A stretch of DNA of 64,000 nucleotides, from NCBI GenBank assembly GCA_038087875.1, contig CM075988.1, forward strand, positions 18,602,001 through 18,666,000, written 5' to 3'. The DNA is from Malacoraja senta. Taxonomy: Eukaryota. Made by a program: the position numbers and the translations under genes. Shown here one piece after another: positions 40,591-46,221 of this stretch; within the stretch, counting starts at the first letter, position 1; each line of letters opens with the position of its first letter. The notes under the pieces are model-generated. The model saw nothing but the letters and a program-made list of their open reading frames with translations, did no database searches and was not told the DNA's origin.

Positions 40591-42724
40591 ATTTATTTTT
40601 TTGTGTGTATGCATGTATGTACATACTCACACACAAAAAATGGACACAAAATGGTGGAGTAACTCAGCAGGACAGGCAGCATCGTTGGAGTAATGCTGGA
40701 GAGAAGGAATGGGTGATGTTTCGAGTCGCGACTACTCACAAATACACAAACGCACACATATTGTGCCTGTCCTGCTGAGTTACTCCAGCATTTTGTGTCT
40801 ATTTTTTTGTGTATTTGTGAGTATATACACACACACTGAACCTTTTTTTTTCTCTATCTCTCTCGTTTATTATATTGTTTCCAGTGTACTATGTTTACAT
40901 ATTCTGTTGTGCTGCTGCAAGTAAGAATTTCATTGTTCTATCTGGGACATATGACAATAAAACACAAGAGTTTTGACTGATGGGAGATCTGGTGCAAGTA
41001 TATAAGATTAGGAGAGGCATAGATAGGGTAGACAGGCAATTGCAGGATGGAAATGTCATAGACCAGTGGGCATAACATTAAGGTGAGAGGGGCAAAGGTT
41101 AAAGGAAACGTGTGAGGCAAGTTTTTACATAGAGGTTGGTGGGTGCCTGGAACACGCTGCCAGGAGTGGTGTTGGAGGCAGATGTACGATCGTGGCGTTT
41201 AAGAGGCTTTTAGATGAGTACGTGGATATGCAGGAAATGGATGGATATGGACTATGAGCAGGCGCAGAGGAGATTAGTTTAACTTGGCATCATGTTGGGC
41301 ACAGACAATGTGGGCTGAAGGGCCTGTTACTGTGCTGTACTATCCTATAGAAACAAACAACAGCAGATGCTGGTTTATACCCAAGATTGACACAAAGTAC
41401 TGGAGTAACTCAGCAGGTCCCAACCTGAAATAACACCCATCGTTTTCCTCCTGAGATGCTGCCTGACCCGCTGAGTTACTCCAAAAGTTTGTGCCTATCT
41501 TCTATCTTCTATCTTCTACATTCTATCTTCTATCTTCTAAGGTTTGTGCTTAGGACATTCTTTGCCATTCTTTGTGGAATTCTTGGCCATTGAAGGCGGT
41601 GGAGGCCGTCAATGGATATTTTTTAAGGCAGAGATAGATAGATCCTTGATTAGTACGGGTGTCAGGAGTTATGGGGAGAAGGCAGGGGAATGGGGTTAGG
41701 AGGGAGAGATAGATCAGCCATGATTGAATGGCGGAGTAGACTTGATGGGCTGAATGGCCTAATTCTGCTTATATTACTTATGACCTTATGAACTTAAGAC
41801 ACAATGGAGTTTGAAGTATAAATAAAATTGTCTAGTTGTCTATCTCTGCCTTAAATATATCCACTGACTTGGCCTCCACAGTCCTCTGTGGCAATGTGTT
41901 CCGCAGATTCACTACCCTCTGACTAAAGCCCTCGCTCTAAGCTCTTTCGTCCGAGACTAAATGTCCTAGCTCTTTCCGTTCCTGCAGTAGTTCCTGCCTC
42001 TTTACTGATGTCGAACATGTTCATAAAAACAAAATCCTTCATGTGAACCATTAATGAGGACTTGAATCCAACACAAGCTCTCTCCAATTAAAGATATCAC
42101 ACCGCATGTAGTATCATGCTAGGTGCAAGGGTTAAAATAATGTGCTCATGCTTGGAGTCTAGGAAGTTACAAGATAATCAGTGGTTTTTATTTAAATAAA
42201 GTTGTTAAAACAGAGTTCAGAAAAAATGCATTATTTATCAAAAAGCTTTTATCTGCTCTCTTGTTTTCAGTGATACATCGCATCTTGTCCTTGGATTTTT
42301 ACATTATGCAACAGTTTTAATGGTGACCACAAATTGGAGGGTGCTGCAAGCAATAATATGGGATTTTTGCAGGGAACTGAGTTTAATGTTAGCAGGTTTT
42401 TTTTGCCACACAGGAAGCAGTGGTTAGGGGATTTACACTGCTGTTAGAACTGCTTGTGGATGACGTATATATTTCTCAAATGCGGACTGAAGTAGTGAGA
42501 AAAGGCTTTTTAAAAGGCAAGGCTGGAGGAAGGAACTGCAGATGCTGGTTTACACCGGATAGACAGAAAAAGCTGGAGTAACTCAATGGGTCAGAGAGCA
42601 TCTCTGGAGAAAAGGAACAGGTGACATTTCAGGTCGAGACGCTTCTTCGAGTCTGAATGTCACCTTTTCTCCAGAGATGCTGTCTGACCCGCTGAGTTAC
42701 TCCAGCTATTTCTGTCTATCCGAC

Positions 42725-43270
42725 CTACCGGCTGCCAACCATTTTAACTCATTCCCATTCCCATACTCACCTTTCTGGCCTGGGCCTCCTCCATTGCCCG
42801 AGTGAGGCCATACACAAAATGGCGGAACAGCACCTCATATTCCACTTGGGAAGCTTACAACCCAATGGTATGAATGTTGAATTTTTCATTTTAAAGTCAC
42901 ACCCTCCCTCCACTCCCCGTCTCTCTTTCGTATGCCCATCCCATCCAGGTGTGCATACAATTTCCCCCCTATCCTGCCCTCCTTTCACCCTCTCCCCCTA
43001 GAGTCCCTTCCACCCTTATCCCTCTCCCCAACTTTACATTTCACTCCTCCTCTCTCCTTATCCTCCTTACGCTCTTCTCTCCTTTTCATCTCTGGCTTTT
43101 GGCCAATCCAACCTCCCTCACCTGTATCCACCTATCACTTGCCAGGCTTTATACCCCCCTCCCCCACCCTCACCTCCCAACATGTCTTTACCAGCTTCCT
43201 CCCCACCCCCACTCCATCAGTCTGTCCAGGTTGTCAGTCCATTCCCTCTACAGATGCTGCCTGACCAGCT
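42725..43270 (+). mobile_element. Older Penelope-like element 3' fragment
   Basis: EQHLIFHLGSLQPNGMNVEF peptide and pyrimidine-rich 3' region. Confidence 0.8.
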
Positions 43271-44622: not shown

Positions 44623-44792
44623 TGGTTGCTGAGATGATCGGAGGCACTGCTTCAAAAATCAGCATCATCAAGGACCCACACCACCCTGGTCACGCTCCGA
44701 TTTCAATCCTGCCATCTGGAAGGAGGTCTACTTGCTTATGGCACGCACAGCCTAAAGTTGTAGCACAACTTGTTCTATTTGATCTATTGTTT

Positions 44793-45280
44793 AAGAGGGA
44801 ACTGCAGATGCTGGAAAATCAAAGGTAGTCGAAAATGCTGGAGAAATTCAGCGGGTGAGGCAGCATCTATGGAGCAAAGGAAATAGGCAACGTTTCGGGT
44901 CGAGACCCTTCTTCAGAGGGTGGGGGGGCGGGAAGAAGAAAGGAAGAGGAGGAGCCAGTGGGCTGAGGGAGAGCTGGGAAAGGGAGGAGAAAGCCGGGAC
45001 TACCTGAAATTAGAGGTCAATGTTCATACCGCTGGGGTGTCAACTGCCCAAGCGAAATATGAGGTGCTGCTCCTCCAATTTACGGTGGACCTCATTCTGG
45101 CCATGGAGGAGGCCCAGGACAGAAAGGTCGGATTTGGAATGGGAGGGGGAGTTGAAGTGCTGAGCCACCGGGAGATCAGGTTGGTTATTGCGGACCGAGC
45201 GGAGGTGTAGGGCGAAGCGATCGCCAAGCCTACGCTTGGTCTCACCGATGTAGAGCAGCTGACACCTAGAGCAGCGGATG
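44793..45280 (-). mobile_element. Penelope-like element fragment (GIY-YIG endonuclease C-terminus plus terminal repeat with hammerhead motif)
   Basis: Minus-strand ORF contains CSRCQLLYIGETKRRLGDRFALHLRSVRNNQPDLPVAQHFNSPSH...RKLEEQHLIFRLGS, typical of Penelope GIY-YIG endonuclease. Hammerhead core at 44889-44916. Confidence 0.85.
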
Positions 45281-45312
45281 TATTTGATATATCTGTTTGT
45301 GCACGTCGGGTT

Positions 45313-45366
45313 GATTGCATTAGTCAAAACAGGGAAGACCACGTGAAGGTTGCAATCTCCCACCCC
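45313..45366 (-). ncRNA. Minimal HDV-like (nested double-pseudoknot) self-cleaving ribozyme at the 5' end of a short retroelement
   Basis: Minus strand reads GGGGUGG(P1) GA GAUUGCA(P2) ACC(P3) UUCACGU(L3) GGU(P3') CUUCCCU(P1') G(P1.1') UUUUGA(vestigial P4) CUAA(J4/2, catalytic C at 45323) UGCAAUC(P2'). P2 is 7/7 Watson-Crick and P3 is 3/3. P1 opens with the canonical G.U wobble but has one U-U mismatch and one extra G.U in this copy. Confidence 0.8.
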
Positions 45367-46221
45367 CTGGAAGGAGGTGCAGGAACCTGAAAACCGTGAC
45401 GTCCAGGTTCAGGACCAGTTTCTTGCCAACAACCATCAAGTTATTGAAGCTGCAAACACTCACTAAAATTCCAACTACAAACTGTCTCGGTTGCAATAGG
45501 AACTTTGGGCTTTAGTTTTGCTTTTCACTAATGCTGGGTTTTTTGTTATTTATTGAACTTCTTTTCCATTTGTTTCTTATGTTATCTCTTGGGTACTGTG
45601 ATTACAGACCTGTTACGCTGCTGCAAGTAAAGATTGCACCGTCCAATTTTGGCACAGATGACAATTAAACACTCTTGACTGGTGATGTACATGGCAACAT
45701 ACAATGGGAAAGTGAACTGTAGATGGCCCCAGTATGGAGCAAGCATATTGGAACAATTACAGTTCTCTTGCATTACTTAGGTATACTTTGCAATCGAAGG
45801 TCTGGAAATAAAATAAGTTAATTATTACCGCACCCATTCAAGCTGCTATTGTAACATTAACAATCTCCACTTCAATTATTTCCTCCGGCATAGAACACTT
45901 TGATTTCTTTGTATTCGGAATTTCTCCTTATCTCTTCCCCTTGCTCGTAATGATAATTTCCACTTATTTTCTCGCTATCCAAGCGGGGAAAATAGTTACC
46001 GTATCAAATTACCTCACTATCTCCATGAACTCAATCCACAGCCGACACACATGTGGCGTTTGCGTGCGCCGTTTACAAGGTGCTCCCGTAACATTATTGA
46101 GGTTTCCTTGTCAGTGCTTCACGCTCATGTTTTCGACCTGCCCGTGGCGAGCCCTGTCAACTGACCTCAGATATCAGCAGCGCCGCAGCTCGGCGCCAAC
46201 CTGGAGCGTGCGCTCTTTTTA

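What the first reader, a model, noticed from the sequence alone, without database searches (positions are those of the whole stretch)
45313..45366. Ribozyme-headed SINE: a minimal HDV-like ribozyme starts exactly at the 5' nucleotide of a TSD-bounded short retroelement
Seen: a 12-bp TSD (CTGGAAGGAGGT, 44716-44727 and 45367-45378) fixes the element's 5' end at 45366 on the minus strand. From that base the sequence parses in HDV order: P1 GGGGUGG, J1/2 GA, P2 GAUUGCA, P3 ACC, L3 UUCACGU, P3' GGU, P1' CUUCCCU, G, a vestigial P4, J4/2 CUAA, P2' UGCAAUC (54 nt). There are no Pol III A/B boxes. Established: HDV-like ribozymes cleave immediately 5' of the first G of P1, need a C in J4/2, tolerate loss of P4, and process the 5' ends of R2, RTE and Ingi/L1Tc-type retrotransposons. 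Inference: this is a ~140-nt non-autonomous element (ribozyme + hairpin + AAG-type tail) that cuts itself out of read-through transcripts instead of using a tRNA promoter, and is mobilised by an Ingi/Vingi- or RTE-type LINE. I do not know of a description in cartilaginous fishes but cannot check. This copy has a U-U mismatch in P1 and may be impaired.
Basis: partly seen in the sequence, partly recalled or inferred. Interest (0 to 1): 0.92.

Follow-up and report, generated by a model that had tools for sequence, protein, structure and literature searches.

The report
Ribozyme-headed mini-LINE in a cartilaginous fish
A roughly 137-base jumping element, present in about two thousand or more copies, begins exactly with a small hepatitis-delta-type self-cutting RNA fold copied from the front of its parent LINE, which probably trims its own 5' end; the kind is known, but this very small version in a vertebrate is a new example.

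Summary
Observation confirmed. The 12-bp duplication and the HDV-order parse are at the stated coordinates. The element belongs to a large family: 1,928 exact genome matches to its 34-nt core. 27 of 30 sampled copies start at the same GGGG, and 24 of 30 have a duplication abutting G1, against 3 of 300 controls.

The common form restores a perfect 7-bp P1 with a G1-U wobble. The window copy is a dead one: P1 has a U-U mismatch and a 488-nt insertion splits the body.

I found the partner, a ~3.1-kb LINE (endonuclease + reverse transcriptase) sharing the first ~80 nt and the last ~45-50 nt. So this is a "bipartite non-autonomous LINE", not a Pol III SINE.

A sister LINE family and four metagenome relatives carry the same fold at the same place with different helix sequences. 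In single-cell RNA libraries most reads at the 5' edge join an adaptor directly to G1.

Self-cleavage itself is untested, and a start site at G1 is not excluded. The kind is already described (NARTc/RIME, R2 SIDEs, RTE derivatives): a new member, unusual for lacking P4. Rfam scores stay below threshold; the sister family's ribozyme hits only the CPEB3 model.

The parts
45367..45378 (-). 5' copy of the 12-bp target-site duplication (ACCTCCTTCCAG on the minus strand)
45313..45366 (-). 54-nt HDV-like fold without P4, starting at element nt 1. P1 45360-45366, P2 45351-45357, P3 45348-45350, L3 45341-45347, P3' 45338-45340, P1' 45331-45337, G37 45330, J4/2 CTAA 45320-45323 (C44 = 45323), P2' 45313-45319. 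This copy has U5-U32 unpaired, G6-U31 as a wobble, and a CpG-to-TpG change at nt 41.
45281..45312 (-). Rest of the LINE-5'-derived part (element nt 55-86), containing CGTGCAC, which can pair with GTGCACG in the 3' part
44793..45280 (-). Nested 488-nt insertion, not part of the element. It holds a GIY-YIG endonuclease remnant and a 3' region typical of an abundant repeat, and looks like a Penelope-like element 3' fragment. It is flanked by an 18/17-nt imperfect duplication (45281-45298 and 44776-44792).
   Evidence: (GIY-YIG E 0.031, below cut-off); no Rfam hammerhead hit
44728..44792 (-). 3' part of the element: short junction, hairpin GTTG..CAAC, then TTTAGGCTGTGC(A/G)(C/T)GCCATA(C/A)GCAAG and a decayed (AAG)n tail. 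From about TTGAYCTRCAAC onward it is shared with the LINE 3' end, including the LINE stop codon TAG.
44716..44727 (-). 3' copy of the 12-bp target-site duplication

Best explanation
The element is an internally deleted, non-coding derivative (about 133-143 nt) of a ~3.1-kb RTE-like LINE ('LINE-A'). It keeps the LINE's first ~80 nt and last ~45-50 nt.

Its first 54 nt fold as a minimal, P4-less HDV-like ribozyme (nested double pseudoknot P1/P2/P3/P1.1, with C44 in J4/2).

Proposed mechanism:
1. A copy lying in any transcribed region is read through from upstream. Shown: heterogeneous upstream flanks on RNA reads.
2. The ribozyme cuts immediately 5' of G1 and frees an RNA with an exact 5' end. 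Inferred; RNA 5' ends at G1 are shown.
3. The LINE-A protein recognises the shared 3' hairpin and (AAG)n tail, nicks the target and reverse-transcribes to the RNA's end. Inferred from shared ends, duplications and tails.
4. The result is full-length copies that begin at G1 between 8-15 bp duplications. Shown.

The window's own copy is an old, inactivated insertion.
For: Family and ends.
- The 86-nt head gave 2,560 first-look candidates. All 40 scored were 93-100% identical, and 33 of 40 covered nt 1-86.
- There are 1,928 exact matches to the 34-nt core, against 0 for the reversed control.
- 27 of 30 copies start GGGG after unrelated flanks. 24 of 30 have a duplication abutting G1, against 3 of 300 controls.

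Fold.
- The strict descriptor hit only this family in 697,232 nt.
- In 30 copies, P1 is paired in 204 of 210 cells, P2 in 207 of 210, P3 in 90 of 90, and C22-G37 in 30 of 30.
- The two main subfamilies have U5-A32 or U5-G32, 51 and 46 of the first 100 listed, so both are paired (my count).
- In narrow scans against 4,227 Rfam families the best hits were HDV-type models: CPEB3 15.4 and HDV-F-prausnitzii 12.2 bits on the window copy, and HDV-F-prausnitzii 17.5 bits on an intact copy.

Partner LINE.
- L053 holds a near-full copy whose 5' end is 98.6% identical to element nt 9-80, then runs into an APE + RVT_1 ORF.
- The 3' ends are shared.
- Of 12 sampled LINE 5' ends, 2 start GGGGTGGG and most others lack 1-12 nt.

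Comparative.
- Sister family B starts, in 14 of 20 sampled 5' ends, with GGGGGAC...; it has the same architecture plus a 7-bp P4 and different P1, P2 and P3 sequences.
- 4 of 23 metagenome relatives with an N-terminal match carry the fold 114-205 nt upstream on the sense strand. 9,355 nt were scanned; background is 7-10 sites per 611,890 nt.
- On 8 sequences, 95.5% of cells pair against 81.9% in shuffles (0 of 500 reach it). 12 cells change on both sides against 3.5 (0 of 500). Slid controls give 48-60%.

In vivo.
- Depth is confined to the element.
- In two single-cell RNA runs, 1,600 and 1,365 reads have a loose end just before G1. Its consensus is a 30-nt adaptor ending GGG (agreement 0.74 and 0.68), which I recognise from memory as a template-switch oligo. 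That places cDNA ends, and so RNA 5' ends, at G1.
- Bulk runs show 872 and 728 reads crossing the 5' edge into heterogeneous flanks, which is read-through.
- Variants of 10% or more inside nt 1-54 fall only at nt 8 (J1/2), nt 32 (keeps a wobble), nt 42 (linker) and nt 45 (the free position of C-N-A-A). 16 such sites (18 table rows) plus an indel site fall in nt 55-137.
Against: - No cleavage assay was done.
- All Rfam scores are below the gathering thresholds: 15.4 against 35, and 12.2-17.5 against 44. The 10-kb scan listed nothing here.
- The nested minimum-free-energy fold of the 54 nt is no better than shuffles (z 0.23). That program cannot model the pseudoknot.
- In bulk oligo-dT RNA no start peak was reported at G1 (table 6: none). 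Most reads at the 5' edge run on into flanks, so most transcribed copies are uncut at steady state, or are inactive copies.
- An RNA 5' end at G1 fits a transcription start as well as a cut.
- Most family-B copies have an A-C mismatch at P1 pair 6.
- The metagenome rows in the covariation count were chosen by a descriptor that demands pairing, so the percentage paired is partly built in.
- Two more distant LINE families showed no motif in 7 windows.
Confidence: 0.8

Rival explanations
1. G1 is a transcription start. The first ~80 nt act as an internal promoter (Pol II or Pol III), as reported for Pr77 of L1Tc. The HDV-like fold is then secondary, or serves another role alongside.
For: Adaptor-joined RNA 5' ends at G1 are what a start site would also give. 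The abstract of PMC3383444, seen in a search listing, says the first 77 nt of L1Tc/NARTc are both promoter and ribozyme. Bulk RNA shows mostly uncut read-through.
Against: No tRNA-like head was found, and I saw no A/B boxes by eye. The covarying double pseudoknot is kept across LINE lineages whose primary sequences differ, which a promoter does not explain. Abundant read-through from upstream flanks shows that copies are transcribed from outside. A dual role is not excluded.
Confidence: 0.1
2. The fold is kept as a structural RNA signal with no catalysis: binding of the LINE protein at the 5' end, translation initiation on the LINE, or protection of the end. The exact 5' end then comes from some other processing.
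For: A review states that R2's ribozyme region also binds the R2 protein and may act like an IRES (passages of PMC6765202 read). The non-coding derivative needs no translation yet keeps the fold.
Against: The features kept are those specific to catalysis: G1 at the base of P1, C in C-N-A-A, the L3 C paired to G37, and a 3-bp P3. Element ends coincide to the base with the predicted cleavage site.
Confidence: 0.07
3. The resemblance to an HDV-like ribozyme is chance in a G-rich 5' end.
For: Rfam scores are below threshold and the MFE is not significant.
Against: There were zero strict-descriptor hits outside the family in 697,232 nt. The same fold sits at the same place in a sister family and in metagenome relatives, with compensatory changes. 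HDV-type models are the top Rfam hits.
Confidence: 0.02

Closest known systems
Bipartite (ORF-absent) non-autonomous LINEs from the RTE, Vingi, Ingi and R2 clades, e.g. RTESINE1/2, WALLSI3, MAR4_MD, Vingi-1_EE derivatives (Kojima 2018, PMC5786205; passages and section 23 read)
   Same: Made only of the 5' end and the 3' end of an autonomous LINE by internal deletion. No small-RNA head and no ORF. The extreme 5' end of the LINE is kept, which that paper links to a terminal self-cleaving ribozyme.
   Different: Much shorter (about 137 nt), from a cartilaginous fish, and the ribozyme is delimited here. I do not know whether this family is already in Repbase or Dfam, since neither can be searched from here.
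NARTc and RIME, with the L1Tc/Ingi HDV-like ribozyme (Pr77) in trypanosomatids (PMC3185411, PMC3383444, PMC4035085; abstracts seen in search listings)
   Same: A non-autonomous deletion derivative shares the first tens of nucleotides, which carry an HDV-like ribozyme, with its LINE. The ribozyme frees the RNA from co-transcripts.
   Different: Protist host with polycistronic transcription, where the same 77 nt also act as promoter. Here the host is a vertebrate, the fold is a 54-nt P4-less version, and a promoter role is untested.
R2 SIDEs of Drosophila (PMC3414825; abstract seen in search listings)
   Same: Internal-deletion derivatives that keep the 5' ribozyme and the 3' protein-binding end of the parent element.
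   Different: R2 derivatives are specific to 28S rDNA and co-transcribed by Pol I. This family is dispersed, with variable duplications.
Mammalian CPEB3 ribozyme (Rfam RF00622)
   Same: L3 UUCACGU and the following CCCUGU are identical in family A. In family B most of the core lines up (GGGGG.C, AGCGUUC.CGUCGCG.CCCC.GUC, GC.AAU), and CPEB3 is the only Rfam hit, at 19.9-27.9 bits and E 2e-5 to 0.009.
   Different: Scores are below the gathering score of 35. CPEB3 is a single-copy intronic ribozyme of mammals (passages of PMC6765202). Here the fold is the terminal nucleotides of multi-copy retroelements. Common descent is not shown.
Minimal (P4-less) HDV-like ribozymes and theta ribozymes of gut phages (Kienbeck 2024, PMC10879173; passages read)
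   Same: Double pseudoknot without a P4 domain, about 50-60 nt, with a catalytic C in J4/2.
   Different: That paper reports nearly 99% of minimal and theta examples in Caudoviricetes phages, often next to tRNAs. This one heads a vertebrate retroelement and has P4-bearing sisters.

Membership tests
HDV-like self-cleaving ribozyme | Nested double pseudoknot in the order P1-J1/2-P2-P3-L3-P3'-P1'-(P1.1)-(P4)-J4/2-P2' | tested here: met
   Descriptor hits are restricted to the family. Pairing is 204/210, 207/210 and 90/90 in 30 copies. Covariation is seen across 8 sequences.
HDV-like self-cleaving ribozyme | Catalytic cytosine in J4/2 (C-N-A-A) | tested here: met
   C44 is present in 29 of 30 copies. 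No variant of 10% or more occurs at nt 44, 46 or 47 in RNA reads, while nt 45 varies. Five other lineages have CCAA.
HDV-like self-cleaving ribozyme | Cleavage immediately 5' of G1 at the base of P1 (G-U or G-C) | tested here: inconclusive
   Element ends and adaptor-joined RNA 5' ends lie at G1. The chemistry of the end (5'-OH) and the cut itself were not observed.
HDV-like self-cleaving ribozyme | Score at or above the Rfam gathering threshold of an HDV-type model | tested here: not met
   15.4 against 35, and 12.2 and 17.5 against 44. Family B scores 27.9 against 35. The models expect a P4.
HDV-like self-cleaving ribozyme | Divalent-metal-dependent self-scission in vitro, lost on C-to-U | not testable with these tools
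   A bench assay is needed.
Bipartite non-autonomous LINE | 5' part equals the extreme 5' end of an autonomous LINE | tested here: met
   Element nt 9-80 are 98.6% identical to the L053 LINE 5' end. The LINE 5' ends L064 and L065 start GGGGTGGG.
Bipartite non-autonomous LINE | 3' part equals the extreme 3' end of the same LINE, including the microsatellite tail | tested here: met
   LINE 3' ends L040, L041 and L049-L051 share TTGAYCTRCAACTTTAGGCTGTGCACGCCATACGCAAGAAG.
Bipartite non-autonomous LINE | No ORF; dispersed copies with target-site duplications | tested here: met
   Length is 131-143 nt; 24 of 30 copies have duplications.
SINE in the strict sense (Pol III, small-RNA-derived head) | Head derived from tRNA, 7SL or 5S with an internal Pol III promoter | tested here: not met
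   ARAGORN finds nothing in 4 loci. The head is the LINE's own 5' end.
RTE clade LINE (partner) | About 3.2 kb, single ORF of about 1000 aa with APE and RT, no RNase H, very short UTRs | tested here: inconclusive
   The architecture fits. Homologues are 990-1003 aa on 3.0-3.6 kb contigs. No phylogeny against reference clades was possible, so Vingi is not excluded. A C-terminal CxCx9Hx4C motif is present.

The most novel reading that the evidence does not exclude
This vertebrate LINE group carries CPEB3-type ribozymes as its terminal nucleotides. The mammalian CPEB3 intronic ribozyme would then be an exapted 5' end of such a LINE or of its mini-derivative. Family A would show that a P4-less 'minimal' HDV-like ribozyme arose naturally inside a eukaryotic retroelement, and is now scattered about two thousand times or more through transcribed DNA, where sense-strand intronic copies could cut host pre-mRNAs.
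Probability: 0.25. Interest if true: 0.75.

Novelty: new member of a known kind. Interest (0 to 1): 0.52.

Why it matters
- It gives a clean, very small natural test case for the idea that LINEs lacking promoters, and their deletion derivatives, define their 5' ends by self-cleavage. The case comes with a parent LINE, a P4-bearing sister and RNA 5' ends in hand.
- It would place a P4-less HDV-like ribozyme in a vertebrate. One paper reports such minimal forms as almost confined to phages (PMC10879173; passages read).
- The sequence closeness of the sister family's ribozyme to the CPEB3 model makes the origin of that mammalian ribozyme testable.
- Practically, about two thousand or more near-intact ribozyme cores are a source of co-transcriptional cuts that annotators of this genome should know about.

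Tried and rejected
- Rfam over 10 kb: nothing at the site.
- MFE folding of the 54 nt: not informative for a pseudoknot.
- Earlier-findings look-ups: nothing on this genome or sequence.
- First LINE leads: the best C-terminal protein hits were one composite locus amplified in 8.4-10 kb tandem units, so they are not independent copies.
- L057, the intact 886-aa ORF of the sister family: 5'-truncated, no motif. Other copies had it.
- Two more distant LINE families: 7 upstream windows, no descriptor hit and no clear 5' end. This neither supports nor refutes.
- Hammerhead in the nested insertion: no Rfam hit. GIY-YIG is only weak.
- Sequencing-run index: no RNA holder listed; raw RNA runs were laid instead.
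- Naming the LINE clade from homologues: the names were uninformative.
- Ruminski et al. 2011 (PMC3308841) is not held. Its content is cited only through PMC5786205 and PMC6765202, so its supplementary lists of RTE ribozymes could already include relatives.
- Literature searches returned no paper on an HDV-like ribozyme in a cartilaginous fish or on a retroelement origin of CPEB3. One search was poorly posed, because the fish terms alone satisfied it.
- A covariation count for P2 with the tool was not possible: MAFFT misaligned the 3' strands. The P2 comparison rests on the descriptor parses.

Full report
**What is at the site.** On the minus strand the window reads ACCTCCTTCCAG | GGGGTGGGAGATTGCAACCTTCACGTGGTCTTCCCTGTTTTGACTAATGCAATC... 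and, 639 nt further on...GCCATAAGCAAGTAG | ACCTCCTTCCAG.

The interior 44793-45280 is foreign. It translates to a GIY-YIG-like remnant (Pfam E 0.031, below the cut-off) followed by sequence typical of an abundant repeat. It is flanked by an 18/17-nt imperfect duplication of the element's own nt ~69-86. Without it, the element is about 134 nt.

**It is a large family with a fixed first base.**
- The 86-nt head found 2,560 first-look candidates in the window's own 1.94-Gb genome. All 40 scored were 93-100% identical, and 33 of 40 covered nt 1-86.
- An exact 34-nt core pattern matched 1,928 places. The reversed control matched none.
- In the 30 loci fetched, 27 start GGGG, 2 start GGG and 1 starts GG. 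Each follows an unrelated flank, and the body runs 131-143 nt to an (AAG)n-type tail.
- A duplication of 8-15 bp ending at the base before G1 was found in 24 of 30 copies, against 3 of 300 control offsets.
- These 30 copies were the ones most similar to the window copy, so they are not a random sample.

**The fold.** The common form has P1' CCACCCU (or CCGCCCU) opposite GGGGUGG. That is a full 7-bp P1 with G1-U36 at its base, so the window copy's CUUCCCU is a decayed version.
- Across the 30 copies P1 pairs in 204 of 210 cells, P2 in 207 of 210, P3 in 90 of 90, and the L3 C22 with G37 in 30 of 30.
- A strict descriptor was run over 697,232 nt. It required G1, a perfect 7-bp P1, P2 of at least 5 bp, a 3-bp P3, L3 of 6-8 nt with a C, a G after P1', and C.AA before P2'. 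It hit 23 start sites, all in this family.
- Allowing one P1 mismatch gave 13 other hits in 724,228 nt. Several of these are copies of one another.
- In narrow Rfam scans the best hits were HDV-type models: CPEB3 15.4 and HDV-F-prausnitzii 12.2 bits on the window copy, and HDV-F-prausnitzii 17.5 bits on an intact copy. All are far below the gathering scores of 35 and 44. The 10-kb scan showed nothing.
- Plain MFE folding is uninformative (z 0.23).
- Between G37 and C44 there are only six bases (UUUCGA), so there is no P4.

**The partner LINE.** I searched the genome for the element's tail anchor with non-element sequence upstream. This gave 11 places, two of which (L040, L041) continue upstream into an ORF ending ...HKWGMTDSPACDCGHPDQTIPHIVNDC.... 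Protein searches with that end and with an upstream piece found thousands of candidates.
- L053 holds a near-full copy. It starts at element nt 10 (98.6% identical over nt 9-80) and diverges from the short element after ...CAAACAAATAGAT.
- It then reads an APE-type start (..YQLNVAGMS..), RVT_1 (E 1.9e-23 on copy L052), and a 212-aa C-terminus with no Pfam hit.
- It ends ...TTGATCTRCAACTTTAG GCTGTGCACGCCATACGCAAGAAG..., about 3.1 kb in all. The LINE stop codon lies inside the shared tail.
- Of 12 sampled LINE 5' ends, 2 begin GGGGTGGG. Most others lack 1-12 nt, and several abut inverted LINE sequence.
- The short element is therefore an internal-deletion derivative: head nt 1-~80, about a dozen junction bases, then the last ~45-50 nt.
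- ARAGORN sees no tRNA-like head.
- Homologues of the sister family's ORF are about 1000 aa on contigs of 3.0-3.6 kb in many animal groups, with uninformative names. The build is RTE-like; the clade is unresolved.

**Comparative support.** A sister LINE family ('B') is 43% identical in the linker region and has an intact 886-aa APE + RVT_1 ORF. It is young: 40 scored 5' ends are 97-100% identical, and 32 of 40 run from the first query base.
- 14 of 20 sampled copies start, after unrelated flanks, with GGGGGAC-UAU-GGAUCA-GCG-UUCUCGU-CGC-GCCCCCC-G-UCAGUA-[CCCAGGC UC GCCUGGG]-GAAG-CCAA-UGAUCC.
- This is the same architecture with different P1, P2 and P3 sequences, plus a 7-bp P4.
- Most copies have an A-C mismatch at P1 pair 6. 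Two copies have G there.
- Rfam's only hit on these heads is the CPEB3 ribozyme model, at 19.9-27.9 bits against a gathering score of 35, E 2e-5 to 0.009.

I also fetched 78 metagenome loci that encode relatives of the ORF.
- 23 had an N-terminal match. In 4 of these (L111, L155, L164, L166) the relaxed descriptor hit 114-205 nt upstream on the sense strand, again with different helices and a P4 hairpin.
- 9,355 nt were scanned in this way. Over all 611,890 nt of those loci the descriptor gave 20 start sites: 10 in these four loci, 3 in one conserved antisense motif, and 7 others.

Pairs were counted for P1, P3 and C22-G37 on eight sequences.

| Measure | Observed | Shuffles | Shuffles reaching it |
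|---|---|---|---|
| Cells paired | 95.5% | 81.9% | 0 of 500 |
| Cells changed on both sides | 12 | 3.5 | 0 of 500 |

Slid controls gave 48-60% paired with 0-1 such cells. The metagenome rows were selected by a descriptor that requires pairing, so the paired percentage is partly built in. Their position and strand were not selected.

Two more distant families gave nothing in 7 windows.

**RNA.** The element's 31-mers occur in runs under nine coded organism labels, none on record as RNA. Four raw RNA runs of one label were laid on copy L010 with flanks.
- Depth is confined to the element (1501-1637).
- In the two single-cell libraries, 1,600 and 1,365 reads carry a loose end just before G1. Local depth there is about 1,940 and 1,780.
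- The consensus of those loose ends is a 30-nt adaptor ending GGG (agreement 0.74 and 0.68, median length 31). I recognise it from memory as a template-switch oligo.
- The full adaptor precedes all four element Gs, so the cDNA ended at G1, give or take a base. These are RNA 5' ends.
- The two bulk oligo-dT libraries show 872 and 728 reads whose loose ends before G1 are heterogeneous (agreement 0.44 and 0.39). That is read-through from many loci. No start peak was reported.
- So precursors exist and a discrete G1-ended species exists. Whether the end is made by cleavage or by initiation is not settled by these data.
- Variants in at least 10% of reads inside nt 1-54 lie only at nt 8 (J1/2), nt 32 (A/G opposite U5), nt 42 (linker CpG) and nt 45 (U/G/A, the free position of C-N-A-A).
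- nt 55-137 holds 16 such sites (18 table rows) and an indel site.

**Comparison with what is known.** Kojima 2018 (PMC5786205; passages and section 23 read) defines bipartite ORF-absent non-autonomous LINEs from RTE, Ingi, Vingi and R2. It notes that they keep the LINE's extreme 5' end, and suggests a terminal self-cleaving ribozyme as the reason, citing Ruminski et al. 2011, which I could not read.

NARTc/RIME with the L1Tc ribozyme and the R2 SIDEs are worked examples (abstracts in listings). A review states that LINEs and non-autonomous SINEs use hammerhead or HDV-like ribozymes in diverse metazoans (PMC6765202; passages read).

The present element is thus a new member of a known kind. What stands out:
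- its size;
- the absence of P4, when minimal forms are reported as nearly confined to phages (PMC10879173; passages read);
- P4-bearing sisters in the same genome;
- the CPEB3-like core;
- the direct view of G1 ends in RNA.

None of my searches returned a description in cartilaginous fishes or a retroelement origin for CPEB3. Repbase, Dfam and subscription journals were not searchable.

**Verdict.** Catalysis is inferred (confidence 0.8). The window's own copy is a dead relic.

Noticed in passing
window 44793-45280 (-): A nested 488-nt insertion with a GIY-YIG remnant (Pfam E 0.031). It also contains the words CUGAAGA...GAAAC, which I recall as hammerhead-core-like, but Rfam found no hammerhead. 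It looks like a Penelope-like element 3' fragment.
   Followed up: partly
L004, L018 (element copies); L087, L092, L098 (family-B LINE copies); compare window 42571-42760: An abundant repeat word (...gctgcctgacccgctgagttactccagcac...) is a recurrent insertion point. Two element copies share the duplication TCCAGCACT there, and three family-B LINE copies begin right after it.
   Followed up: no
G000 contigs C862, C2188, C4142, C3883 (L044-L047): One composite locus, a CR1/L2-like LINE inserted in a LINE-A 3' fragment, is amplified as tandem units of 8.4-10 kb at 94-97% identity.
   Followed up: partly
L052 8068-8167: A 5'-truncated LINE-A copy is preceded by an inverted copy of head nt 4-77 plus 18 nt of direct head. 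This suggests template jumps or twin priming that involve the ribozyme end.
   Followed up: no
L041, L044-L046 (relaxed descriptor hit GGCCCAC...GTGGCCC): Another HDV-descriptor match inside the amplified unit. It may be chance or a further ribozyme.
   Followed up: no
L154, L165, L176 (metagenome loci), minus strand near the ORF start: A conserved descriptor hit (GGGTCGT...TTTCTGC...GCGCCCT) antisense to the LINE ORF in three related loci. It abuts the ORF match start in L154 and L165 and lies about 1.2 kb upstream of it in L176.
   Followed up: no
L002-L030: 20 of 24 detected duplications begin with A, often AA or AG, overlapping the (AAG)n tail. This fits priming by microhomology at the nick.
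   Followed up: no
loose ends behind L010 1623 and 1630: In the single-cell libraries, poly(A) runs follow element nt ~123 and ~130. These are either short polyadenylated element RNAs or oligo-dT priming on the AAG-rich tail.
   Followed up: no
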